Source: a virus (lineage: Duplodnaviria; Caudoviricetes). Taken from it: a stretch of DNA of 64,000 bases. The notes below the pieces were generated by a model that saw only the letters and a list, made by a program, of their open reading frames with translations, did not search any database and had not been told where the DNA came from. The position numbers and the translations under genes were made by a program. Positions within the stretch are counted from its first letter, which is position 1, and the number at the start of each line of letters is the position of its first letter. The stretch covers positions 1,306 to 65,305 of IMG/VR virus record IMGVR_UViG_3300050821_003357; one strand, given 5' to 3'. Of the stretch, positions 4,452 through 19,195 are shown one piece after another.

Positions 4452-4624
4452 CATACGAATTTAAAATGCCCGATCCCCTGCCGTGGGCAGACTGTGCGGG
4501 AGAGGGATTGCCCGGACTTCCCCTGATATATCGCACGATCTGCGGTCACATCCGCATCATCGTCTATGAGAGCACCCCAGACGTAGCAGTGAGAATGGCG
4601 GACTACATCGAAAACACCCCTTGA
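4448..4624 (+). CDS. small hypothetical protein
   Basis: ORF between two copies of a 19-bp repeat; ends ENTP like upstream gene. Confidence 0.45.
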   Translation: MTYEFKMPDPLPWADCAGEGLPGLPLIYRTICGHIRIIVYESTPDVAVRMADYIENTP

Positions 4625-4651
4625 CATTGGCCCCAAAACATGCGCTACACA
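4621..4651 (+). promoter_or_regulatory. candidate late promoter
   Basis: TTGACA followed by GCTACAC (alphaproteobacterial -10-like) upstream of terS. Confidence 0.4.
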
Positions 4652-4723
4652 CGCATCCTGTAGAATTATCTGCGACCCTTAAACATGCGCGAGCTATCTG
4701 CACAAAGAATGCGTTGATTTGCG

Positions 4724-5044
4724 ATGGCCGGCATAGGCGGTAAAACTCGCACATCTGGTCAAGGCAGGCCTAAGGGCACGCCTAACAAAGTCACCCGCGA
4801 CATCCGCGAGATGCTTCGGGCCTCGCTCGACAAGGTCGGCGGGGTGGCATATCTGGTGCGCCAAGCTGAGGCTAACCCGGCGTCATACATGGCACTAATC
4901 GGTAAGATTGTTCCTGCCCAGGTCGAGGCTACTATCCGCCGCGAACTCCCGGAAATGACCCGCGATGAACTACTCGTCCTCCTCAATAGCACAAGAGCTG
5001 CTGCTGAGAATGGACGGGGAGGCGAGTCTCGTAAGGTTCATTGA
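4724..5044 (+). CDS. terS: terminase small subunit
   Basis: GRPKGTPNKVT N-terminus; precedes and overlaps terL. Confidence 0.75.
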   Translation: MAGIGGKTRTSGQGRPKGTPNKVTRDIREMLRASLDKVGGVAYLVRQAEANPASYMALIGKIVPAQVEATIRRELPEMTRDELLVLLNSTRAAAENGRGGESRKVH

Positions 5045-6449
5045 GTTAGTTTCACCCGACACCAAGCCGGCGCGTCACCATCGGCTGCTGCTCTCCCGCC
5101 TCGAGGCTTTGGAGCGGGGCGAGATCACGCGGCTGATGATCTTCATGCCGCCAGGCTCAGCGAAGAGCACCTATGCATCTATCCTATTCCCTCCGTGGTT
5201 TCTTGGCAGAAACGCTCAGCGATCTGTTATCGGTGCAAGTCACTCAGGGGAACTTGCCGAACGATTTGGCCGCCGCGTGCGAAACCTTGTCGGCTCAACA
5301 GACTTCCGCCGAGTTTTCGGCTTCGGTCTATCGGGGGATAATGCAGCTGCTGGCCGTTGGGAAACGGAGCGAGGTGGAGAATATTATGCGGTGGGCGTTG
5401 ACGCTTCCGTTACCGGAAGGCGAGCTGACCTCGGGATTATCGACGATCCCGTAAAGGGCCGCGCCGAGGCCGACAGCCAGACGATCCGCGATCGTATCTG
5501 GGACTGGTATCGGTCGGACTTCTGGCCGCGTCTCAAGCCGGGCGGGCGGATCGTGCTGATCATGACCCGGTGGCATGAAGACGATCTAGCTGGGCGCTTA
5601 ATCGCAGAGCAGGACGGTGGCGGCGAGCGCTGGGAGGTGCTTTCGCTTCCGGCCGAGGCTAGGCCAGGGGATGCGCTAGGGCGCGCCGTAGGAGAGCCGC
5701 TATGGCCTGAGTGGTTCGGGACGGCGATCTTTGCGGAGGCGAAGCGTGATCCGCGGAACTGGTCTGCGCTGTACCAGCAGGAGCCGACCCCAGAGAGCGG
5801 GGAGTATTTCAAGAATGAGTGGATCAGATGGTATGACCATGCCCCGCCCCGAGACCATATGCAGATCTACGGAGCCAGTGATTACGCTGTCACGGCAGCT
5901 GGTGGTGATTACACGGTTCACGGTGTCGTCGGAATCGACCCTCATGATGATCTCTACATCCTCGACCTGTGGCGAGATCAGTCCGCGTCTGACGTATGGG
6001 TCGAAGCCTTCCTCGACCTGATCGAGCGTTGGGGTCCGATCATGTGGGCGGAGGAGCAAGGGCAGATCATCCGCTCGCTAGGTCCGTACATCGTTAAGCG
6101 CCAGCTAGAGCGCCGGCTGTTCAAGACGTATCGCAAGCAATACTCCTCGGCACATGACAAACCGACGCGGGCGCAGTCCATCCGAGGTCGGATGGCGATG
6201 GGCAAGGTCTACTTTCCACGCAGAGCGCCATGGGCGGCTGATTTGGTATCGGAGCTGCTACGGTTCCCGGCTGGTAAGAATGACGATCAAGTGGACATGC
6301 TGAGCCTTGTGGGGCGCATGCTGGATCGTCAGGTGGCGGGTGAGGTTCCGAAGGCGTCAGAGCCGATGCGCGGGCTCAACGAGATGACGATGGACGAGGT
6401 GTGGGATCGGGCTCGTCCGGTGATGGCGCATCATGAGCGGGCTTGGTAG
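4965..6449 (+). CDS. terL: terminase large subunit
   Basis: MPPGSAKST, GRRADLGIIDDPVKG, MTRWHEDDLAG, FPAGKNDDQVD. Confidence 0.96.
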   Translation: MNYSSSSIAQELLLRMDGEASLVRFIELVSPDTKPARHHRLLLSRLEALERGEITRLMIFMPPGSAKSTYASILFPPWFLGRNAQRSVIGASHSGELAERFGRRVRNLVGSTDFRRVFGFGLSGDNAAAGRWETERGGEYYAVGVDASVTGRRADLGIIDDPVKGRAEADSQTIRDRIWDWYRSDFWPRLKPGGRIVLIMTRWHEDDLAGRLIAEQDGGGERWEVLSLPAEARPGDALGRAVGEPLWPEWFGTAIFAEAKRDPRNWSALYQQEPTPESGEYFKNEWIRWYDHAPPRDHMQIYGASDYAVTAAGGDYTVHGVVGIDPHDDLYILDLWRDQSASDVWVEAFLDLIERWGPIMWAEEQGQIIRSLGPYIVKRQLERRLFKTYRKQYSSAHDKPTRAQSIRGRMAMGKVYFPRRAPWAADLVSELLRFPAGKNDDQVDMLSLVGRMLDRQVAGEVPKASEPMRGLNEMTMDEVWDRARPVMAHHERAW

Positions 6450-7882: not shown

Positions 7883-8059
7883 ATGAAGTGGCTGCGCGCG
7901 CGTCTAGCTGAGCCGTCGACCTATGGCGGGCTGGCGGGGCTGTGCATGATGGTCGGGATGTGGTCCTTCACGTTCTGGCCGCACTGGCGGCTGATGATCT
8001 ACGCGGCGGGAGTGTTGTTCATCGTCCAGGCGATCAAGGCTGAGCGCGGCGGCAAATGA
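7883..8059 (+). CDS. small 2-TM holin-like protein
   Basis: MKWLRARLAEPSTYGGLAGL..., 58 aa, ATGA overlap with next gene. Confidence 0.55.
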   Translation: MKWLRARLAEPSTYGGLAGLCMMVGMWSFTFWPHWRLMIYAAGVLFIVQAIKAERGGK

Positions 8060-9684
8060 TCCGTCGCATCCTCCTCGCCGCATGCCTGATCCTGGCTGCG
8101 GCGGGAGGGACATATTGGGCATTCCTTTGGGAAACGCATAGCCAGAGTTCGACTGGCTGCCCGATGCCGCATCTTCTGCAGAACGGTACGCTTGCCGATG
8201 CGGGTCAGGTGATGGACAATTTCAACACACTCAGCGGCTGCATCGCAAATATCGCCAGCTATGATGCGCGATCCTTCGGGGCGAAATGTGACGGGGTGTC
8301 GGATGATTCCGCCGTCATCAATACGGCGCTGATAAATACCAAAGTAGTATATATTCCTCCGGTTAGCACGGGTTGTGCCTACGGATCGACTATAAACGTA
8401 CCGGCTGACGCAAACATCGTTGGTTGGGGGCACAATCTATCGGTGCTGAAGGCTCTTTCGACTAATTTGACGGGGGTATCATTTACCGGCAGTTATAGCG
8501 GCATGTATGGAGTTACCGTCAACTGCGGTGCTCCTGGGACTAATTCTAGTGGCAATTGCGTTAATGTGGCGCCCGGTCTGCGCGAGATCAGAATCACGAA
8601 CAATGGCGTGCTCGGTCCATTTGTCGGGATCGGCACGACGACATCGGTTCTTGTGACGATAGAGGACAACTATATTTACAACCCTACGATTACAACTGGT
8701 GGGTGTATCCTTGTAAACGGTGGGAACAATCAGGTTCTCAGCAATAATTTCTGTCAGGGGATTGATTCAACGCACCAGCCGCGCGATGGGATCGAGATTC
8801 TGGATACGCAGGGCATCTGGCTCTCGAACAACCAGAGCCTTAATGCTGGGGCCGGCGAGTTGATTGATCCGGGAACGGGGCAGATAGTCACTTGGGTTTT
8901 TGAGGAGCGGGGTTCTTACGACAGTGGCTCGATGAACGGGCTATCGATCGCGCCCACGGGCACGGGCAGCGTGCGAGGCTATTTCTGCCATCAATGCTGG
9001 ACCTCGACCAACACGCTGAGCGGGGTTGCCATACTAGGCGGGGGTTCGACGGTAATCGATGACATCCATTTCGAGGGGCATCGATCTTACAATAACCAGC
9101 AGCACGGCGTTTCCGTAGGCGCTGGCGCAACGAACGTCTATCTTACGGCGGGTTCCTCGATCTGCGCCAATTCGCAGGCCGGCGCGGGTTCCTATAACGG
9201 TGTCGATATCGGCGTCGCAACCCACGTCACCATAAGCGGTGATCGTATCGGGAACTGCGCCGGGTTTGGTGGACCGGGTGGAAACCAGCTACACGCGATC
9301 AATGCTGGGCTCGGGTCGAATCAGCTCACGTTCACCGGGAACGACCTGACGGGGAACAACAACACTCCCCTCAATATCCTCTTCAGCAACGGCACGATCG
9401 CGACGATTGGGCAAAATCTCGGGGTCGATGATCAGATTCCAAACGTGGCATCCGCGACAACTGTTACTCTGCCGCCGAACCCGATCATCGCCCTGACCGG
9501 GAACACCTCGATCCAGAACATGCTTGGCGGCTGGCAGGGCGTCCAGAAAACATTCATTCAGGGGACGAATCAGACATTCGTCACGGGGGGTACATCGGGA
9601 CAGGACATCGCGACGGCCCTGACGACGACCTCGCCCATTCCGAACACGGCATATCTTGCGGGGCCGCATTGGTACATCAAGTAG
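8056..9684 (+). CDS. tailspike-like parallel beta-helix protein with N-terminal signal peptide
   Basis: FGAKCDGVSDDSAVINTAL pectate-lyase-3-like start, Asn/Gly beta-helix repeats; MIRRILLAACLILAAAG leader. Confidence 0.8.
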   Translation: MIRRILLAACLILAAAGGTYWAFLWETHSQSSTGCPMPHLLQNGTLADAGQVMDNFNTLSGCIANIASYDARSFGAKCDGVSDDSAVINTALINTKVVYIPPVSTGCAYGSTINVPADANIVGWGHNLSVLKALSTNLTGVSFTGSYSGMYGVTVNCGAPGTNSSGNCVNVAPGLREIRITNNGVLGPFVGIGTTTSVLVTIEDNYIYNPTITTGGCILVNGGNNQVLSNNFCQGIDSTHQPRDGIEILDTQGIWLSNNQSLNAGAGELIDPGTGQIVTWVFEERGSYDSGSMNGLSIAPTGTGSVRGYFCHQCWTSTNTLSGVAILGGGSTVIDDIHFEGHRSYNNQQHGVSVGAGATNVYLTAGSSICANSQAGAGSYNGVDIGVATHVTISGDRIGNCAGFGGPGGNQLHAINAGLGSNQLTFTGNDLTGNNNTPLNILFSNGTIATIGQNLGVDDQIPNVASATTVTLPPNPIIALTGNTSIQNMLGGWQGVQKTFIQGTNQTFVTGGTSGQDIATALTTTSPIPNTAYLAGPHWYIK

Positions 9685-11232
9685 ATGGCTGAGCAGACCT
9701 ATGGCGACTCCTTTGGGTCGATCGAAGAACGCAAGGATATTGGGACTGACCCCGGCAGTACCGTGCGGTTCTGGCTGCAGCAGCTGCGTCTTGCCGAGCG
9801 CGAGAACAGGCTGTGGATCAAGCAGGGTCGCCGTGTCGTCAAGCGCTATCGTGACGAGCGACAGCTCACGGGGAAGCAGGGGGCGCGGTTCAATATCCTG
9901 TGGGCTAATGTCGAGACCTTGAAGCCCATTTTGTACGGTCGGACTCCGAAGCCGGATGTCGAGCGTCGGCACAAGAACAATGACGATACGGCTCGGGTAG
10001 GGGCGGAGATACTTGAGCGCGCCCTGTCCTATGAGGATGACCTTGACGAATTTTCCGAGGTCATGGAAGCGGTCGTAGAAGATCGGCTGTTGCCGGGCCG
10101 GGGCGTGGCTCGGGTGTATTACGAAGCCAAGTTCGGTGATCCCGAGGAAGATCCGGAGGCCGAGCCGGACGAAGAGACCGGCGACCGGCCGACTTTTAGA
10201 CCTGTGGCGAGTGAACGCGCTCCGGTGCGCTACATCTTCTGGGAAGACTACCGGGAGAGCCCGGCGCGGAACCACAAAGAGGTATGGTGGAAGGCGTATC
10301 GGACCTATATGACGCGCGACGAGCTGAAGGAGCGGTTCGGAGCCAAGCTAGGCGCGAAAGTGACGCTGGATTACTCGCCCAAGGGCATTGGCGAGGACGG
10401 TGTTGACGGGCCGCAGGCCGACGCCTTCAAAAAAGCTCAGGTATGGGAGATTTGGGATGGCAAGAAGCACGAGGTCGTATGGCTTGCTACGTCGTACAAG
10501 GATGCCCCTCTCGACACGAAGGACGACCCGCTACGGTTGCCGGGCTTTTTTCCCTCGCCGCGCCCGTTATCGGCTACGACTACAAATGAGACCCTTACGC
10601 CAGTGGCTGATTTTGCCGAATACCGGGACCAAGCCGTCGAACTCGACATCCTGACGGCGCGGATCGACAAATTACAGAGCGCGCTGAAGGTCGCCGGGCT
10701 CTATCCGGGCTCGGAAAAGTCGACGATCACGCAATTGGTCGACGAAAATTCGGAAAATAAGCTGATTCCGGTCGAGAATTATGCTGCTTTTATGGACAAG
10801 GGCGGCTTGCAGAACATCATTCACTGGCTGCCGATCAAGCAGATAGCTGATGTGTTGATCGGGCTGTACGAGGCACGCGACAAGGTCTTGCAGACGCTCT
10901 ACCAGATTACCGGCATGGCCGACATTCTGCGTGGCGAGACTAATCCGAACGAGACATTGGGCGCGCAGCAGCTGAAATCGCAGTTTGCGACGCGGCGCAT
11001 CTCGAAAGCGCAGAAACAGGTGGCTCGGTTTGCGCGAGATCTGATGAGACTACGGGGTTTCGTCATCGCAACCCATTTCTCGGCCGAGACGTTGATGGAG
11101 ATGACGGGATTGCCGGAACCGCTGCCGGAGTTGCCGCCCGCGCCGCCGATGATGATCCCGGCTCCGCCTCCGCAGCCGCAGATGGGTGGCAACATCGTGC
11201 CACATCCGGCAATGCAGGGGCAAGCGGCGTGA
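9685..11232 (+). CDS. portal protein, N-terminal part (split gene)
   Basis: FNILWANVETLKPILY, DRLLPGRGVARV, QITGMADILRG, ETLGAQQLKSQF; ends in Pro-rich tail. Confidence 0.88.
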   Translation: MAEQTYGDSFGSIEERKDIGTDPGSTVRFWLQQLRLAERENRLWIKQGRRVVKRYRDERQLTGKQGARFNILWANVETLKPILYGRTPKPDVERRHKNNDDTARVGAEILERALSYEDDLDEFSEVMEAVVEDRLLPGRGVARVYYEAKFGDPEEDPEAEPDEETGDRPTFRPVASERAPVRYIFWEDYRESPARNHKEVWWKAYRTYMTRDELKERFGAKLGAKVTLDYSPKGIGEDGVDGPQADAFKKAQVWEIWDGKKHEVVWLATSYKDAPLDTKDDPLRLPGFFPSPRPLSATTTNETLTPVADFAEYRDQAVELDILTARIDKLQSALKVAGLYPGSEKSTITQLVDENSENKLIPVENYAAFMDKGGLQNIIHWLPIKQIADVLIGLYEARDKVLQTLYQITGMADILRGETNPNETLGAQQLKSQFATRRISKAQKQVARFARDLMRLRGFVIATHFSAETLMEMTGLPEPLPELPPAPPMMIPAPPPQPQMGGNIVPHPAMQGQAA

Positions 11233-11429
11233 TAGATAAAGTGGCGCTGACACGGATTTTTGAGGATATCGGTCTATTTGAAGAGTTTTCCTGCGACTAT
11301 TGCGAGAAGCGCGGCAATTTTGTTAGCGGTCCGCATTCCCATGTTTGCTCGCGTTGCGGTGACCGCGCGACTCATGGCTGGTACACGACTCCATTATGTA
11401 ATCGCTGCTTTGGTGCACAATGCCTGTGA
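11229..11429 (+). CDS. small Cys-rich hypothetical protein
   Basis: Three CxxC motifs; GTGA overlap. Confidence 0.5.
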   Translation: MIDKVALTRIFEDIGLFEEFSCDYCEKRGNFVSGPHSHVCSRCGDRATHGWYTTPLCNRCFGAQCL

Positions 11430-11800
11430 GGGACAAGAACCTCTCCGCCGTCCTGATGGGCATCAAAGACGCGCTTACCTCGGCGTTCGCACCGCACCTG
11501 TCCAAGATTCCGCCCACAGCGGACGGCTGGACGATGCAGCAGCACATCGACGCGCTGGCGCGTCATTTCGTGCCGATGGCCGAGCGGTTCTTCAATGCCC
11601 CGGCCGATCCGCACGCTGAAAATAGCCGAGCCATTGCAGAACTAAGGTCGGAGATAGCTTTTTTGAGAGATCGGCTGGGTCCGGTGGGCTCGGTAGGCTC
11701 CGCTATGGTGCCGCCTGAGCCGGCACCGGAGGACCAACCGCCCCCCACGTCTTCGTCAAAGATACTGTCCTTGTTGGGTCGCAAGCGGAAAGCGCAATAA
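11420..11800 (+). CDS. hypothetical protein
   Basis: 126-aa ORF in tight operon. Confidence 0.6.
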   Translation: MPVRDKNLSAVLMGIKDALTSAFAPHLSKIPPTADGWTMQQHIDALARHFVPMAERFFNAPADPHAENSRAIAELRSEIAFLRDRLGPVGSVGSAMVPPEPAPEDQPPPTSSSKILSLLGRKRKAQ

Positions 11801-12088
11801 ATGTCGAGGCCGGTACAAGACACCTTTACTGCCTCCAACATATCGGCAAATACAGCGCAGTTCGAATTGCAGGGCGGCAAGTACGGCATCGATTGCATAG
11901 CAACCGGAGCGGGTTCGGTTACGCTACAGAAGTTGGCTGGCGACGGCGCGACTTACGTTACCGCGGCTACGGCATTTTCCACAACTGCCGGATACGCTAC
12001 GGCCGATCTGCCGTGCGGTCTCTATAGGCTGGCAGTCGTTACGTTCACTGCGGTTTATGTGACCATTACGCGGATTCAGGGCGAATAA
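11801..12088 (+). CDS. small beta-rich virion-like protein
   Basis: Thr/Ala/Gly-rich; GSVTLQKLAGDGATYV. Confidence 0.65.
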   Translation: MSRPVQDTFTASNISANTAQFELQGGKYGIDCIATGAGSVTLQKLAGDGATYVTAATAFSTTAGYATADLPCGLYRLAVVTFTAVYVTITRIQGE

Positions 12089-12357
12089 TGAATATAAATC
12101 GCATTAGGATTGCCTATCTCGATGCGTTTAGGGCCGCGAACCCGTCATGCCAGGAAATCCCGCGTTTAATCTATGATAATGGGGGATTTATATTTCAGTA
12201 TGACGATGATCTTTGTGAGAGGTTAGGTTTAAAGCCAACCCCGGTGAGTCCCACACAATTAGTGGAGATGACCAAAAAACTCCTTTGGCGCGCTAAGTGC
12301 GGCTATCTCACCTTGGGTCAATATGAGATGATGAATCGCCCAGAGGGGAGCGCCTGA
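12088..12357 (+). CDS. hypothetical protein
   Basis: AT-richer 89-aa ORF; TAATG/TGATG overlaps. Confidence 0.55.
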   Translation: MNINRIRIAYLDAFRAANPSCQEIPRLIYDNGGFIFQYDDDLCERLGLKPTPVSPTQLVEMTKKLLWRAKCGYLTLGQYEMMNRPEGSA

Positions 12358-13127
12358 TGCTTGGTATGCAGCCGGGCGCCTCGCTGCCGCCCCAGCAACC
12401 GCAGATGATGCCGAACCCGGCCTTCCAGCAATGGATGCAATTGAAGCAGATGCGCGATCAGGAGATGGCGCGGCGACAAAAGCAGTTCATGGCGGCGTGC
12501 TCGCTGATCAAAGAGGACGCGGCCAAATCGTACAAGATCGATATCGAGGCAGATTCCACGGTAGCGGCGGACGAGCAGGCGGAAAAGCAATCCCGCACCG
12601 AATTCCTCCAGGCGATGACGCCATTTTTGGAGGGGATGATCCCGCTCGCGCAGGGCAGTCCGGCACTACTGCCGCTGATTTCCGAATTGATTATGTTCGG
12701 GGTACGGGCGTTCCCGACCTCACGCACCTTGGAGGACGCTTTCGAGACGGCATTGCAGAAAATGCAGCAGATGCCGCCGGCACCGCCGCCGGGCAAGCAG
12801 GGCAACACGAAATCGCCGATGGAGATTCAAGCCCAGGCGCAGACCGAGCAAGGCAAGATAGCGGCCGACGTGCATGATACTCAGGTCAAGGCGCAGACCG
12901 AGCAACAGTCAGATGCGGTCAAGGCGCAGATGGAACAGCAGGCGAATGCCGTCAAACTGCAGCAGATCGCATCACAGGAGCAGATCGCGCGCGAAAAGCT
13001 CCAGGCTGAGCAGGGCAATAAGGCGGCGGAATTGTCGATGCGCGGGCGCGAGATGCAGGGCAAAGAGCAGCTGGAGGACGCGAAGATTCAGCACATGCAG
13101 AGCCGCGAGACGCAAGGATTGGTCTGA
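12357..13127 (+). CDS. portal protein, C-terminal part (split gene)
   Basis: YKIDIEADSTVAADEQAEKQSRTEFLQ...FGVRAF..R.LE then Q-rich coiled coil, recalled as the C-terminus of this portal family; own RBS GAGGGGAG. Confidence 0.8.
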   Translation: MLGMQPGASLPPQQPQMMPNPAFQQWMQLKQMRDQEMARRQKQFMAACSLIKEDAAKSYKIDIEADSTVAADEQAEKQSRTEFLQAMTPFLEGMIPLAQGSPALLPLISELIMFGVRAFPTSRTLEDAFETALQKMQQMPPAPPPGKQGNTKSPMEIQAQAQTEQGKIAADVHDTQVKAQTEQQSDAVKAQMEQQANAVKLQQIASQEQIAREKLQAEQGNKAAELSMRGREMQGKEQLEDAKIQHMQSRETQGLV

Positions 13128-13360
13128 TGCCGACTTGGAATGAAATTACAGAGGCGGCTTTCAAGCACCGCGCGCCTCTCATGGCCGCGAAGCTCATGGA
13201 GCCGAACATGCTCGCTCAAGCGATCGAATGGGGGGCATGGCAAAATCGCGGATCGGTTAAGCGGACTTGGGACTGGCTTCTGCGCCGCCAGCCGCCTCCT
13301 AAGGTTATAATTGGCCCCGTCAAGTTTATGGACGGCGGCGTGCCGATAACGGGCGCATAA
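13127..13360 (+). CDS. small protein resembling major capsid N-terminus
   Basis: WNEIT......R....A......N.L aligns ungapped to MCP. Confidence 0.5.
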   Translation: MPTWNEITEAAFKHRAPLMAAKLMEPNMLAQAIEWGAWQNRGSVKRTWDWLLRRQPPPKVIIGPVKFMDGGVPITGA

Positions 13361-13692
13361 TGGCGCATCGCCGCTGGGTAATCCGCAACGGTGAGTTGGT
13401 CGAGGTGGACCTGAATGCCCCGCTGCCGCCGCGCCGCGCGCCCTACGTGATGTCGGATCTATCGGAATACCGTTCGGTCGTGACGGGCGAGATGATTGGT
13501 TCGCGATCGGAGCACCGCGCGCATTTACGGGCGCATGGCTGTATTGAGGTCGGAAATGAAATGCCCCGCCCGTCACGCGAAGCATTGCCGCCAGTGCGCG
13601 AGGACGTGGCGATGGCGTTGCAAGCGTCGCCGGAAGCTCATGCGGAAGCACGTTCGGCTTCAGAACGCGCAGGAAAGGCTGAATTGCCATGA
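13360..13692 (+). CDS. conserved phage head-region protein
   Basis: YRSVVTGEMIGSRSEHRAHLRAHGCIEVGNE. Confidence 0.7.
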   Translation: MAHRRWVIRNGELVEVDLNAPLPPRRAPYVMSDLSEYRSVVTGEMIGSRSEHRAHLRAHGCIEVGNEMPRPSREALPPVREDVAMALQASPEAHAEARSASERAGKAELP

Positions 13693-15636: not shown

Positions 15637-16671
15637 ATGGCAAGCCCGAATACCAATTGGGGTGAAATCACGACTACCACCCTGTTCAATCGTAGTCGTA
15701 AACTCGCGGACAACGTCACCAAAAACAACGCACTGTTAGCAAGGCTATCGGAGAAAGGAAAGATCAAAACCTTCGATGGCGGTCAAGCAATCGTGCAAGA
15801 GCTGGAATACTCGGAAAACGGCACTTACAAGAGATATGCGGGCTACGACATCCTGAACATCTCGCCGTCCGATGTGTTCACGGCAGCGCAATTTCCGATT
15901 GCGCAGGCGGCGGTCGCCGTTTCTATCTCCGGCCTGGAAATGCTGCAGAACTCCGGCCGGGAGAAGATGATCGACCTGCTCGAAAGCCGTATCGGCAATG
16001 CCGAGCGCACCTTCGAGAACAATCTATCATCGGATTGCTATTCCAACGGCACTGCGGACAGCGGAAAGCAGATCGGCGGCCTGCAGTTGCTGGTGGCGGA
16101 TGTGCCGACCAGCGGTACAGTGGGCGGCATCAACCGCGCCACCTGGGCATTCTGGCAGAACAGCGTGCAATCGTTCGCGACTGCCGGCCTGACGCCAGGT
16201 GCCGCGACGATGCAGACGATGATGAACCGCGCATGGTTGGCTCAGGCTCGCCAGGCCGACCGACCCGACCTGTTCCTCGCCGACAACGTCTATTTCCGGT
16301 ATTACTGGGAATCGCTGCAGGCAATCCAGCGCATCACATCCGATCGCACGGCAATGGCGGGCTTTGCCAGCCTGAAATTCATGGACGCCGACGTGGTCTA
16401 CGACGGCGGTTTCCAAGGCGTAACGGCAGGTCAGGGAACCACGATCGACGGCGCGGGCCACACCTGGACCTCGGGTCAAGGCGCTCCGGCCTCACATATG
16501 TACTTGCTCAACACCGAGTACATCTTCCTACGCCCGCATAAAGACCGTGACATGGTTCCGCTCGATCCCGACCGCTTTTCGGTCAATCAGGATGCGATGG
16601 TCAAGCTGGTAGGCTGGGCCGGCAACGTCACGATGTCCAATGCCTTCCTTCAAGGCGTTATTACGGCATAG
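15637..16671 (+). CDS. major capsid protein
   Basis: TTTLFNRSRKLADNVTKNNALL, SISGLEMLQNSG, GFASLKFMDADVVYDGG; size and position. Confidence 0.92.
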   Translation: MASPNTNWGEITTTTLFNRSRKLADNVTKNNALLARLSEKGKIKTFDGGQAIVQELEYSENGTYKRYAGYDILNISPSDVFTAAQFPIAQAAVAVSISGLEMLQNSGREKMIDLLESRIGNAERTFENNLSSDCYSNGTADSGKQIGGLQLLVADVPTSGTVGGINRATWAFWQNSVQSFATAGLTPGAATMQTMMNRAWLAQARQADRPDLFLADNVYFRYYWESLQAIQRITSDRTAMAGFASLKFMDADVVYDGGFQGVTAGQGTTIDGAGHTWTSGQGAPASHMYLLNTEYIFLRPHKDRDMVPLDPDRFSVNQDAMVKLVGWAGNVTMSNAFLQGVITA

Positions 16672-17236: not shown

Positions 17237-19195
17237 ATGCTGAATATAGTCTGCGTCAAACACGGTTCGTTGTATGGCGCAGACTATGTCAATCGGCTGT
17301 ATGCGATGGTCGCCCGCAACCTGACGGCAGGGCACGAAGGCCGGTTCATCTGCTTTACCGACGATGACGCGGGCATCAGGCAGGAAATCCACTGTCGGCC
17401 ATTGCCGAAAGGGATCTTAGGCTGGTGGAACAAACTCGCTCTGTTCGCGCCGGGCGAGTTCGAACGGCACGACCGCATCCTGTATTTCGACCTTGATACG
17501 GTGATGGTCGGAGATCTCGACGAAATCGCGCGATATGACGGTGAATTCGCCATTCTGCGGGACTTTTACAGAGAGGATGGATGGCAATCATCGGTAATGG
17601 CATGGAAGTCCGGATTTGGTGCCGAGATCTGGCAGCGCTGGAACCGCGAGGGCCGCCCGGAAGCCGATGGCGGCGATCAGGAATGGATTGAGCATGTTTT
17701 CAAAAACAAATGGCCAGTAATCCAGCCCGAAATCCTGCAAGATCTCTACCCTGGGAAGTTTGTCTCCTATAAGCGCGACTGCATCCCGTATCCACCTGAA
17801 GGCGCGAGTGTGGTGGTCTTCCACGGTGAGCCCAAGCCGCACGATTGCGGGCGCTCCTGGGTCGAGGCGATGTGGACCGAGAGCGATACCGGGCATTTCC
17901 AGCTGGCGATGATCCCGAATATCCCGCTTGAGCAGATCAGAAAGCAGGCCAAGCATTCCGCTACGCTGGGGCTGCCGCGCCTTAAATCACAGCCGGCCAA
18001 TCAAGGAACCGCTTCGCCATTTATCGGCAAAGTCGCCATTATTGGCGGCGGTCCGTCCATTGGCGATCCGGTCATTCAGGCTGAGTTGTCGCTACTGCGC
18101 TCCAAAGGGTTCGCGATCTGGGCGCTCAACGGCAGTTATGATTGGCTGCTCGATCGCGGCCTCGTAGCTGACGCGCACGTGCTGCTCGACGCGAGATATG
18201 ACAACCTGAGATTTCTTCGTAATTCCGAGCCGGAAACGACTTATTACCTCGCTTCGATATGCAGCGGCTTTGTTTATGACGAGCTAATCACACAGGGCCG
18301 GAAAATCGTCCGCTTCGATCTGGATGTGATGGGCGATTGCGGAACTACGGTAGGCACGCATGCCATTGCCGTGGCATTTACCGAGGGTTTCCGGGAAATC
18401 CACCTATACGGGTACGACAGCTCATACCGAGGGGACGCCGGGCATGCCTATGAACAGGCGCTGAACGGCGAGGAGCGGATTGTCGATGCGCATGTCGGGG
18501 ATCGGACCTTCCGAGCGGCACCGTGGATGGTGCGGCAAGCGCAGGATTTCGACGGCTTGGCGGCTGCGATCGTTAGCGCCGGAGGAACGATCGTCGTTCA
18601 TGGCGACGGGCTGCTTCCGTATGTCGCGCAGCAGATGGCGGCACCGCGATGGGCAGAGGTCCGCGCGGCAGAAGTGCTGAAGCGTCTTCCTGCCGGCCCT
18701 GTACGTGGCGCTGAGATTGGCGTGTTCTGTGGCGGGATGTCTGCCGCACTACTGCAGCGACCCGATCTCGATCTGTTGATGGTCGATAGCTGGGAAGGCG
18801 ATGGGAAAGCATATTTGTCCGAAAGCGGCGATTGGCATGCGAAGCTGAGCCGTGATGAGCAGAATAGCTTTATGAAGATTGCGAGTCGCGCCGTCGACTT
18901 TGCTGGCTGCCGAGCAACAATCCGACGCGTCAGATCTCGAACACAGGCACGATCGATAGGTATAGAACGGCTAGACTTTGTCTTCATTGATGCGGATCAC
19001 TCATACCAGGGGTGTAAGGCTGACATCGTGGCATGGGCACCAAGGATAAAGCCCGGCGGCCTATTGTGCGGGCACGATTACGACAATCCGGATTTCCCCG
19101 AATTCGGGGTGAAGCGCGCAGTCGATGAGTACGCCGCCACGACTGGCCGTCAAGTGGAACTCGGCGCCAACCTGACGTGGTTCATCCGACTCTGA
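17237..19195 (+). CDS. glycosyltransferase + DUF115/Maf-like + class I SAM methyltransferase fusion
   Basis: YFDLD, GDQ, VFHGEPKPH; IIGGGPS..LN..GFREIHLYGYDS; EIGVFCG, FIDADHSY, KPGGLLCGHDY. Confidence 0.85.
   Translation: MLNIVCVKHGSLYGADYVNRLYAMVARNLTAGHEGRFICFTDDDAGIRQEIHCRPLPKGILGWWNKLALFAPGEFERHDRILYFDLDTVMVGDLDEIARYDGEFAILRDFYREDGWQSSVMAWKSGFGAEIWQRWNREGRPEADGGDQEWIEHVFKNKWPVIQPEILQDLYPGKFVSYKRDCIPYPPEGASVVVFHGEPKPHDCGRSWVEAMWTESDTGHFQLAMIPNIPLEQIRKQAKHSATLGLPRLKSQPANQGTASPFIGKVAIIGGGPSIGDPVIQAELSLLRSKGFAIWALNGSYDWLLDRGLVADAHVLLDARYDNLRFLRNSEPETTYYLASICSGFVYDELITQGRKIVRFDLDVMGDCGTTVGTHAIAVAFTEGFREIHLYGYDSSYRGDAGHAYEQALNGEERIVDAHVGDRTFRAAPWMVRQAQDFDGLAAAIVSAGGTIVVHGDGLLPYVAQQMAAPRWAEVRAAEVLKRLPAGPVRGAEIGVFCGGMSAALLQRPDLDLLMVDSWEGDGKAYLSESGDWHAKLSRDEQNSFMKIASRAVDFAGCRATIRRVRSRTQARSIGIERLDFVFIDADHSYQGCKADIVAWAPRIKPGGLLCGHDYDNPDFPEFGVKRAVDEYAATTGRQVELGANLTWFIRL

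What the first reader, a model, noticed from the sequence alone, without database searches (positions are those of the whole stretch)
9685..13127. Portal protein split into two genes with four ORFs between them
Seen: the portal ORF stops after a Pro-rich tail; 1.1 kb later an ORF with its own RBS begins with a Pro/Gln leader and continues YKIDIEADST..EKQSRTEFL, which I recall as the contiguous C-terminal (wing strand/crown/barrel) part in this family. Both halves share in-frame CCGCAGATG (11176-11184, 12399-12407); joining there gives one ORF. No intron or intein signature. Established: portals are normally single-gene dodecamers. Inference: a two-chain portal split at a flexible loop; bypassing or splicing is less likely.
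Basis: partly seen in the sequence, partly recalled or inferred. Interest (0 to 1): 0.8.

Follow-up and report, generated by a model that had tools for sequence, protein, structure and literature searches.

The report
Phage portal encoded as two genes
This soil phage and a large group of its relatives make the portal, the ring through which DNA enters and leaves the capsid, from two separately encoded proteins, and the gap between the two genes has become a slot for swappable accessory genes.

Summary
ORF 9685-11232 (515 aa) and ORF 12357-13127 (256 aa) match adjacent, non-overlapping parts of one portal family, with four tightly packed small ORFs between them.

The split is not an artefact. 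A second soil sample bridges both junctions. All 20 of 20 close IMG/VR relatives that show both halves are split at the same Pro-rich loop, with spacers from -4 nt (ATGA overlap) to 4471 nt. Both halves are under purifying selection. The record, rated 100% complete, yielded no other portal in the families searched.

More distant relatives have one chain: 26 of 26 genome loci and 5 of 5 annotated phages. A tree needs three changes of state, all at this loop.

No intron, intein or bypass signature was found. The shared 9-mer is at chance level.

Best reading (0.85): a two-chain portal translated from one late operon, whose seam serves as a cargo-gene hotspot. In relatives the seam holds ART-PolyVal proteins.

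I found no paper describing this. The scan noted the same thing on another genome (e1-5920640). New variant of a known kind.

The parts
9685..11232 (+). Portal N chain gene (515 aa). By homology to the L035 model it covers the wing N part, stem, clip, tunnel-loop motif ITGMADILRGETNPNETLGAQ and the long wing helix.
   Evidence: phrog_12082 positions 14-473 of 715, E 1e-157. 67-89% identical ORFs in 28 IMG/VR loci. dN/dS 0.04-0.14.
11113..11229 (+). Pro/Gln/Met-rich disordered tail of the N chain (residues 477-515). This is the N-side half of the cut linker.
   Evidence: Length and sequence vary among relatives: 52-111 aa after the HFS motif. It corresponds to coil 499-526 of the intact L035 model, where block pLDDT is 56-73.
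11230..11235 (+). Two consecutive in-frame stops (TGA TAG) ending the N chain. The TGA overlaps the GTG start of the next ORF (GTGA).
   Evidence: Read directly from the sequence.
11229..11429 (+). Cassette ORF 1: 66 aa, Cys-rich and zinc-ribbon-like, GC 0.50 (GC3 0.49), so probably foreign.
   Evidence: Only a sub-threshold DZR_2 match, E 0.015. No homologue in 166 fetched loci. Composition. One low-depth contig of a second sample lacks it.
11420..11800 (+). Cassette ORF 2: 126 aa, no family, native-like GC3 of 0.72.
   Evidence: 31% identity over 61 aa to an ORF in the seam of L007. No Pfam, PHROG, NCBIfam or PADLOC match.
11801..12088 (+). Cassette ORF 3: 95 aa, member of a phage-only family of about 94-aa proteins of unknown function.
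   Evidence: 65% identical ORF in the seam of L007. dN 0.28 and dS 3.3 (saturated) against it. ESM Atlas clusters at 0.96, members 83-100% viral.
12088..12357 (+). Cassette ORF 4: 89 aa, no family, GC 0.47, so probably foreign. Its TGA overlaps the ATG of the C chain (TGATG).
   Evidence: No family. No homologue in the fetched loci.
12343..12350 (+). Shine-Dalgarno-like GAGGGGAG, 6 nt upstream of the C chain start codon.
   Evidence: Read directly from the sequence.
12357..13127 (+). Portal C chain gene (256 aa). It comprises a Pro-rich head (residues 1-21), a helix, the YKIDIEADS strand, crown helices, a Pro-rich hinge and a long barrel helix.
   Evidence: phrog_12082 positions 518-710, E 4.7e-28. 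Aligns to L035 residues 536-729. 119 clusters of stand-alone homologues, none named as portal: 'hypothetical protein' or no name, one a mislabel. dN/dS 0.02-0.34.

Best explanation
The portal of this phage is made from two polypeptides that are translated separately from one late structural operon and assemble together into the portal ring.

The ancestral single gene was cut inside a long, disordered Pro-rich loop of the wing domain. The N chain carries the wing N part, stem, clip, tunnel loop and long wing helix. The C chain carries a helix, one beta-strand that must return to the wing sheet, the crown and the barrel helix.

Start and stop codons overlap along the whole stretch (GTGA, TAAATG, TAATG, TGATG). 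This is consistent with translational coupling keeping the two chains co-expressed.

Once a seam existed, it became a safe landing place for accessory genes. Here it holds four small ORFs of mixed origin. In relatives it holds nothing, or other genes up to 4.5 kb.

Shown here: two ORFs, conservation of the split, purifying selection on both halves, no second portal found, the break lying in a coil of the homologous fold, and no splicing signals.

Inferred: separate translation with coupling, 12+12 co-assembly, and the role of the seam as a cargo slot.
For: Family match. The two halves match adjacent parts of one portal profile.

Conservation. Of 28 IMG/VR loci, 20 of 20 that show both halves have them in separate ORFs. 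In 25 of 25 where the N ORF end is visible, it stops in the Pro-rich tail. Spacers run from -4 to 4471 nt with unrelated content. Window and L031 DNA homology stops at 11219 and resumes at 12385.

Selection. For four close pairs with dS 0.23-0.41, dN/dS is 0.039-0.109 for N and 0.017-0.057 for C.

Only portal. The 65,305-bp record, rated 100% complete by CheckV, holds only these two matches to the family. It has no PF04860, PF05133 or PF16510 match.

Breadth. There are 119 clusters of stand-alone C halves.

Fold. An AlphaFold2 model of the intact 730-aa homologue L035 (pLDDT 85.7, pTM 0.80) has a coil at 499-526. The only strand after that coil is 557-561, so its sheet partner must lie in the N part. 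The model matches single-chain podophage portals across the break: N4 9yf5 Z 24.2, rmsd 4.0, 439 aligned; P22 8eao Z 22.5, rmsd 3.6, 338 aligned.

Complex prediction, N(1-490) with C(18-256). ipSAE is 0.56 (runs 0.55-0.57) and the best of 3 controls is 0.00. The tool's verdict is 'weak support'. That mark was reached by 58 of 80 solved complexes and 2 of 110 mismatched pairs. At 0.60 or under it was reached by only 7 of those 80 and by both mismatches that passed. Partner pLDDT is at least 63 and runs agree in at least 55% of contacts. My own alignments were used, and halves of one fold may pass by likeness to solved portals.

Assembly. Contigs of a second soil sample bridge both junctions with 0 differences (10940-11312 and 12244-12403).

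Recurrence. On a 100-row tree the split state needs 3 changes, all forced by starred branches and all at this loop. One of them is the cultured Bradyrhizobium phage ppBjS10J-1 (GTGA overlap). Its host strain S10J releases short-tailed particles seen by TEM (PMC10127595, passages read).
Against: No protein-level data exist. Nothing shows that both chains are in virions or in what ratio.

The complex prediction gives only weak support.

The AlphaFold2 model of the window's own N chain, made with a shallow alignment, was unusable (pLDDT 38.7). The fold mapping therefore rests on a 51%-identical homologue.

The sequencing runs are contigs only. RNA-library contigs cover just parts of the region and do not prove transcription or exclude a rare spliced form.

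The ppBjS10J-1 split could be a sequencing frameshift. The paper passages I read do not mention the portal.

The PF12236 and PF06074 searches of the own genome are uninformative because their controls did not ring.
Confidence: 0.85

Rival explanations
1. Only the N chain forms the portal ring. The C chain has become a separate protein with another role, such as an internal or ejection protein or an optional crown/barrel add-on, and is not an obligate stoichiometric part of the ring.
For: The complex prediction gives only weak support. The C half evolves faster than the N half (45-76% against 67-90% identity to the window). Some intact relatives are short: L038's open frame is about 554 aa and the window's C half aligns to it only over residues 50-142.
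Against: The C chain keeps the strictly conserved strand motif (Y/F)(K/R)IDIEADS. In the intact model that is the only strand after the break, so it must pair with N-part strands. Solved portals align across both parts as one domain. C is always encoded downstream of N in the same operon. Close pairs give dN/dS of 0.02-0.06.
Confidence: 0.08
2. A single-chain portal is restored after transcription or translation. The routes would be ribosomal bypass between the matching CCGCAGATG sites, an intron, trans-splicing inteins, or a programmed frameshift in the members with adjacent genes.
For: An identical in-frame 9-mer lies in both halves, and joining there gives one ORF. In L024/L025 and ppBjS10J-1 the halves overlap by 4 nt in the -1 frame.
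Against: The 9-mer is at chance level: 35 of 100 shuffles give 2 or more. The first copy is followed by 15 sense codons, not by a stop. The gap is 1.1 kb of coding ORFs here and up to 4.5 kb in relatives. Rfam found only two chance-level matches, to a miRNA and a snoRNA family at E 0.38-0.53. No intein domain was found, and the tails are 39 and 21 aa of Pro-rich sequence. No N-C joint appears in any of the 4 runs laid.
Confidence: 0.03
3. The portal gene was broken by an insertion, and the phage or record is defective or decaying.
For: An insertion inside an essential structural gene is the usual mark of a dead prophage. Two of the four inserted ORFs have foreign-looking composition.
Against: The same split occurs in every close relative across deep divergence (dS above 1), with both halves intact and under purifying selection. 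The record is a virus contig rated 100% complete with a full structural module. Stand-alone C halves occur in 119 clusters from several sources.
Confidence: 0.03
4. Assembly artefact: the cassette was wrongly joined into the portal gene.
For: The record is a metagenome assembly. No single short contig spans the whole 3.6 kb.
Against: In the probable source run, contigs cover 10798-11495 and 11482-13200. In an independent sample, contigs cover 10940-11312 and 12244-12403. Both junctions are bridged with 0 differences. The same architecture appears in dozens of other assemblies.
Confidence: 0.01

Closest known systems
Single-chain podophage portals with crown and C-terminal barrel (N4, Pan3, Pa223, PaP3, SU10, P22 gp1, Sf6 gp3, T7 gp8)
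   Same: Same fold. The model of the intact homologue L035 gives Foldseek probability 1.00 and Z 20-28, with alignments running across the break position. The gene sits in the packaging/head module, downstream of terL and upstream of the major head protein gene.
   Different: In all of these entries a single portal chain aligns across the break position. Here the chain is cut in a wing loop into 515-aa and 256-aa products encoded by separate genes, with other genes between them. Sequence identity to solved portals is only 7-15%, and no PDB chain is found by sequence.
Mx8-type portals (phrog_12082): Myxococcus phage Mx8 gp45, Ruegeria phage 45A6, Rhizobium phage RHph_I3_18, Stenotrophomonas phage BUCT555
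   Same: Same sequence family: 31-38% identity to the N half, and the C half aligns further along the same CDS in four of the five.
   Different: Each is one CDS of 663-783 aa.
Genes in pieces in T4-like phages: Aeromonas phage Aeh1 nrdA split by the mobE homing endonuclease gene (PMC3045599; search listing and start of abstract seen)
   Same: An essential phage gene is cut into two separately translated parts by inserted DNA, and the parts reassemble into a working protein.
   Different: That case is an enzyme and the insert is a homing endonuclease gene. Here a virion ring protein is cut, none of the four inserted ORFs matches any nuclease family, and the insert varies from none to 4.5 kb among relatives.
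T4 gene 60 translational bypass and the 39/60 topoisomerase split (bioRxiv 10.1101/2022.08.31.505936; listing and start of abstract seen)
   Same: A phage gene is interrupted by a mobile insert, and matching codons flank the gap.
   Different: The gene 60 gap is 50 nt (abstract seen); that it is non-coding with a stop right after take-off is recalled, not seen. Here the gap is 1124 nt of ORFs, there is no stop after the first repeat copy, and the repeat is at chance level.
Polyvalent / cargo proteins encoded beside or fused to portal or MuF domains (Iyer et al. 2017, PMC5512222; passages read)
   Same: In relatives the seam holds ART-PolyVal proteins. L014 scores E 1.4e-14, 55 bits, against a cut-off of 31.2; L021, L022 and L026 fall below the cut-off. 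The paper predicts such enzymes are packaged and injected, and notes effector domains fused to portal domains.
   Different: Here the cargo genes lie inside the portal gene, between its two halves, rather than next to it or fused to it. The window's own four ORFs have no such domain.

Membership tests
Portal protein family phrog_12082 (Mx8-type) | Significant match to the family profile | tested here: met
   N part E 1e-157 at positions 14-473. C part E 4.7e-28 at positions 518-710 of 715.
Portal protein family phrog_12082 (Mx8-type) | One polypeptide covering the whole profile | tested here: not met
   Two ORFs lie 1124 nt apart. Intact members are one ORF: 26 of 26 genome loci and 5 of 5 annotated phages.
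Portal fold of tailed phages (wing, stem, clip, crown, barrel) | Three-dimensional fold | tested here: inconclusive
   Met for the 51%-identical intact homologue L035: pLDDT 85.7 and Z up to 27.9 against solved portals. The window's own N chain model was too poor to test (pLDDT 38.7).
Portal fold of tailed phages | Dodecameric ring at one capsid vertex | not testable with these tools
   Needs cryo-EM or biochemistry. The heterodimer prediction gave weak support only (0.56 against controls of 0.00).
Portal fold of tailed phages | Gene in the packaging/head module | tested here: met
   terL at 4965-6449 and major head protein at 15637-16671. A tail-fibre-like gene lies between terL and the portal.
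Pfam PF16510 P22_portal | Score above the gathering cut-off | tested here: not met
   13.2 bits against a cut-off of 26.1, E 0.031. No match in the own-genome search.
Homing-endonuclease 'genes in pieces' (Aeh1 nrdA/mobE type) | A nuclease gene in the insert | tested here: not met
   No nuclease family in any of the four ORFs against Pfam, PHROGs, NCBIfam or PADLOC. Remote homology is not excluded.
Translational bypass (T4 gene 60 type) | Matched take-off and landing codons, a stop directly after take-off, and a short non-coding gap | tested here: not met
   The matching 9-mer is at chance level. 15 sense codons follow the first copy. The gap is 1223 nt start to start and full of ORFs.
Group I / group II intron | Match to an intron covariance model | tested here: not met
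   Rfam E-value scan of 10900-12700 gave only mir-558 (E 0.53) and sR43 (E 0.38), far below their gathering scores.
Split intein | N-intein after the N extein and C-intein before the C extein | tested here: not met
   No intein domain in Pfam. The flanking pieces are 39 and 21 aa of Pro/Gln-rich sequence.

The most novel reading that the evidence does not exclude
The seam is more than a tolerated scar. It may be an evolved cargo-loading site.

In 9 of 9 relatives whose N chain ends in ...DGRHYVPDPxRPGK(F/Y)L(L/M)VA, the seam encodes a protein carrying (I/V)PV(D/E)HDPF motifs; in the large ones they lie near both ends. These proteins are 60-933 aa and some carry ART-PolyVal. In 12 of 12 loci without that tail there is no such protein. 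Two close pairs differ in both features at once: L013 against L014, and L024 against L021/23/26.

On this reading, cutting the portal frees a C-terminal peptide inside the capsid that acts as a dock for enzymes to be packaged at the portal and injected. The window's four small ORFs would then be another cargo or accessory set using the same slot.
Probability: 0.2. Interest if true: 0.85.

Novelty: new variant of a known kind. Interest (0 to 1): 0.74.

Why it matters
In every solved structure matched here, one portal chain spans the position of the break. A natural clade that builds the ring from two chains has several consequences.

- It shows that the wing loop is a permissive cut site. The tree needs three changes of state at this loop (three gains by parsimony; a gain plus re-fusion is not excluded).
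- It gives a natural system for studying the crown and barrel apart from the channel-forming core.
- It explains why 119 clusters of 'hypothetical' proteins are in fact portal parts. Annotation pipelines that see only the N half will call truncated portals.
- The seam is a gene-exchange hotspot placed inside an essential late gene. In relatives it carries ADP-ribosyltransferase-type proteins, so it is a good place to look for injected host-takeover or anti-defence proteins.
- Portal engineering, for nanopores or phage display, could use the same cut site.

Tried and rejected
- **Relatives search.** I used the search for related loci instead.
- **PDB by sequence.** Profiles of either half found nothing meaningful (best E 0.68 and 0.88).
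- **N chain model.** AlphaFold2 on a 15-row alignment of close relatives gave pLDDT 38.7 and was not used.
- **Promoters and terminators.** The scan of 9400-13600 found no more sites than shuffles (1 against 1.7, and 3 against 3.7). There is no sign of an independent transcription unit in the seam.
- **Repeats.** Apart from low-complexity Pro-coding repeats, no long direct or inverted repeats flank the cassette. I rejected site-specific excision; no recombinase is present either.
- **The four ORFs.** No family in Pfam, PHROGs, NCBIfam or PADLOC. The ESM Atlas gave only unnamed phage clusters for the 95-aa ORF and nothing usable for the 126-aa ORF. The 66-aa and 89-aa ORFs have no homologue in 166 fetched loci.
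- **N-only representatives.** I tried to find genomic context for P0072, P0127 and P0006. No close locus came back (best 51%, 44% and 58% identity), so whether those three are true splits stays open. I did not count them in the final tree.
- **RNA-library contigs.** Runs X3 and X6 cover only 6 and 5 of 30 bins. They cannot show transcription, a start or a splice.
- **Own-genome searches.** PF12236 and PF06074 are uninformative because nothing rang in the controls.
- **Literature.** Phrase searches for a split, bipartite, two-chain or heteromeric portal found no phage paper. The library lacks most subscription journals, and supplements were not seen.
- **ppBjS10J name.** The search by the phage name found nothing. 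The mBio 2023 paper (PMC10127595) was found by other terms, and the passages read do not mention the portal.
Full report
**1. What is in the sequence**

Between 9685 and 13127 all six ORFs lie on the + strand and touch or overlap:
- 9685-11232, 515 aa
- 11229-11429, 66 aa, GTG start
- 11420-11800, 126 aa
- 11801-12088, 95 aa
- 12088-12357, 89 aa
- 12357-13127, 256 aa

Against PHROGs, the first ORF matches the portal family phrog_12082 over profile positions 14-473 of 715 (E 1e-157). The last ORF matches positions 518-710 of the same profile (E 4.7e-28).

Pfam gives only a sub-threshold P22_portal match: 13.2 bits against a cut-off of 26.1.

The N ORF ends in a Pro/Gln-rich tail and two in-frame stops, TGA TAG at 11230-11235. 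The C ORF is preceded by GAGGGGAG, 6 nt before its ATG.

The shared in-frame CCGCAGATG is real but at chance level. 1.26 matches are expected per window, and 35 of 100 shuffles give two or more. It sits in repetitive Pro-coding sequence.

**2. It is not an assembly error, an intron, an intein or a hop**

Contigs of the probable source run cover 10798-11495 and 11482-13200. Contigs of a second soil sample from another study cover 10940-11312 and 12244-12403 with no differences. Both junctions are therefore bridged independently. No run shows an N-C joint.

An Rfam E-value scan of 10900-12700 found only two chance-level matches, to a miRNA and a snoRNA family. Pfam found no intein.

The first copy of the 9-mer is followed by 15 sense codons rather than a stop. 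The gap is 1.1 kb of ORFs.

Promoter-like and terminator-like sites are no more frequent than in shuffles. The overlapping stops and starts (GTGA, TAAATG, TAATG, TGATG) point to one coupled late operon.

**3. The split is conserved and the insert is not**

The N half found 28 IMG/VR loci at 67-89% identity.
- In 20 of 20 loci that show both halves, they are separate ORFs.
- In 25 of 25 loci where the N ORF end is visible, it stops in the Pro-rich tail.
- Three loci are cut inside N.

Spacers between the N stop and the C start are -4 nt (ATGA overlap; L024, L025), 181, 202, 250, 390, 927, 1124 (the window), 1447, 1548, 1579, 2178, 2250 and 4471 nt. The content is unrelated apart from two ORFs shared with L007.

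DNA homology between the window and its closest relative, L031, runs through the N gene to 11219 and resumes at 12385 in the C gene.

In 12 of 13 non-redundant loci the C start reads ATGA, so the stop of the previous ORF overlaps it.

**4. Both halves are working genes, and no other portal was found**

For four close pairs with unsaturated dS (0.23-0.41), dN/dS is 0.039-0.109 for N and 0.017-0.057 for C. For the window against L031 it is 0.058 and 0.164.

The window lies in a 65,305-bp virus record that CheckV rates 100% complete. The record has only these two matches to the family. It has no match to PF04860, PF05133 or PF16510. The PF12236 and PF06074 searches are uninformative because their controls were silent.

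A search restricted to proteins of 140-448 aa found 119 clusters of stand-alone C halves from JGI, NCBI, ENA and Logan. Where a source names them it is 'hypothetical protein', apart from one evident mislabel; none is named as a portal.

**5. The ancestral state is one chain, and the cut recurs in one loop**

More distant members are single ORFs. This holds for 5 of 5 annotated phages, at 663-783 aa, and for 26 of 26 genome-contig loci that show both halves; 7 further loci are truncated.

A wider survey covered 162 loci, with some contigs fetched twice. It gave 98 intact, 31 split, 22 with only the N ORF visible and 11 truncated.

I built a FastTree of 100 distinct N-domain rows, 79 intact and 21 split. 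I dropped identical rows, rows under 380 aa and the window's own loci. On this tree the split state needs 3 changes, all forced by starred branches:
- an 18-row clade that holds the window (support 100)
- L086/L087, which sit among the intact L035, L036, L082 and L077
- the cultured Bradyrhizobium phage ppBjS10J-1 (L001), next to the intact Rhizobium phage RHph_I3_18

An earlier IQ-TREE 'quick' tree of 63 rows gave the same picture.

In ppBjS10J-1 the halves overlap as GTGA, and the record's annotation calls the second CDS start too far downstream. Strain S10J releases short-tailed particles seen by TEM (PMC10127595, passages read). A sequencing frameshift in that record cannot be excluded.

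**6. Where the cut lies in the fold**

A shallow alignment gave an unusable model of the window's N chain (pLDDT 38.7).

I therefore modelled the intact 730-aa homologue L035. It is 51% identical to the N half and 33% to the C half. I used 110 full-length family representatives. The model has pLDDT 85.7 and pTM 0.80.

The model matches podophage portals. Foldseek probability is 1.00 for Pan3, Pa223, N4, VP1, SU10, PaP3 and T7. VIA Z scores are 27.9 for Pan3, 24.2 for N4 (rmsd 4.0, 439 aligned, model residues 18-630) and 22.5 for P22 (rmsd 3.6, 338 aligned).

The window's N chain ends, and its C chain begins, inside the coil 499-526 of this model, where block pLDDT is 56-73. That coil lies between helix 491-498 and helix 527-550.

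After the coil come one strand (557-561, the FRIDIEADS motif), three crown helices and a 78-residue barrel helix. This strand is the only one after the break, so its sheet partner must lie in the N part. The two chains are thus predicted to share a sheet. This is an inference; I could not inspect coordinates.

The linker is longer in split forms. In the window it is 52 + 64 aa between the HFS motif and the KIDIE strand. In L035 it is 73 aa.

The complex prediction of N(1-490) with C(18-256) scored 0.56 against 0.00 for the best control. The tool rates this 'weak support'. The pass may also reflect likeness to solved single-chain portals.

**7. The four ORFs and the seam as a hotspot**

None of the four ORFs matches a family in Pfam, PHROGs, NCBIfam or PADLOC.
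- The 95-aa ORF has a 65%-identical copy in the seam of L007. It belongs to a phage-only family of about 94-aa proteins.
- The 126-aa ORF has a weak relative in the same seam.
- The 66-aa Cys-rich ORF and the 89-aa ORF are orphans. Their GC is low (0.50 and 0.47, against 0.58 for the window), which suggests recent acquisition.

In relatives the seam holds larger genes. One is a clear ART-PolyVal protein (L014, E 1.4e-14, above the cut-off). Three more match below the cut-off. The polyvalent-protein paper predicts that such enzymes are packaged and injected, and notes effector domains fused to portal domains (PMC5512222, passages read).

**8. Mechanism, comparison and verdict**

The most likely mechanism is a two-chain portal whose chains are made from one coupled late mRNA and co-fold into the usual ring (0.85).

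It works like a normal podophage portal and belongs to the Mx8-type sequence family. It fails the 'one polypeptide' feature of every known member.

The nearest precedent for the genetics is the 'genes in pieces' ribonucleotide reductase of phage Aeh1. That case is an enzyme split by a homing endonuclease gene. Here no nuclease is present and the insert is freely variable.

I found no paper describing a split portal. The library is incomplete, and supplements were closed.

The same phenomenon was noted earlier in this scan on another genome (e1-5920640). That note is not independent evidence, but my tests on this window agree with it.

Noticed in passing
L009, L014, L021, L023, L026, L106, L108, L110, L114 (seam regions; coordinates): The N chains of these relatives end in ...DGRHYVPDPxRPGK(F/Y)L(L/M)VA. 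In 9 of 9 such loci the seam encodes a protein with (I/V)PV(D/E)HDPF motifs (near both ends in the large ones; 60-933 aa). In 12 of 12 loci without the tail there is no such motif. Close pairs differ in both features at once: L013 against L014, and L024 against L021/23/26. This may be a docking peptide and its cargo.
   Followed up: partly
L014 6732-8441; L021 2627-3967; L022 6879-8096; L026 3227-5002: Seam proteins of relatives carry the ART-PolyVal ADP-ribosyltransferase domain PF18760. L014 is above the cut-off. The other three are below it, matching only the first 40 or so profile positions.
   Followed up: partly
window 11232-11414: One low-depth contig (depth 2, 22 nt on the shorter side) of a second soil sample joins 11232 to 11414 with one extra letter. 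It lacks the 66-aa ORF almost exactly at its gene borders. This hints at gene-by-gene polymorphism of the cassette in the population.
   Followed up: no
window 13127-13360 against L031 7503-9027: A second variable slot lies directly after the C chain gene. The window has one 77-aa ORF there, and L031 has about 1.5 kb of unrelated sequence before homology resumes at the next conserved gene.
   Followed up: no
window 8056-9684: A 542-aa ORF directly upstream of the portal weakly matches a tail-fibre family (phrog_33320, E 3.4e-13) and has a hydrophobic N-terminus. Only its first 100 or so residues are conserved in L031 and L007 (47% identity). That pattern fits a conserved anchor with a swapped receptor-binding part. 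The position between terL and portal is unusual.
   Followed up: no
window 17237-19195: A 652-aa ORF just after the head genes combines a glycosyltransferase-like N part (phrog_1962, E 1e-31) with a DNA-methyltransferase-like C part (phrog_2675, E 3e-21).
   Followed up: no
L001 (OP596615.1) locus 4527-5237: The GenBank annotation of Bradyrhizobium phage ppBjS10J-1 starts the second portal CDS at locus 4716. Homology and the open frame extend up to a GTG at 4527 that overlaps the stop of the first CDS. Both CDS are labelled 'hypothetical protein'.
   Followed up: partly
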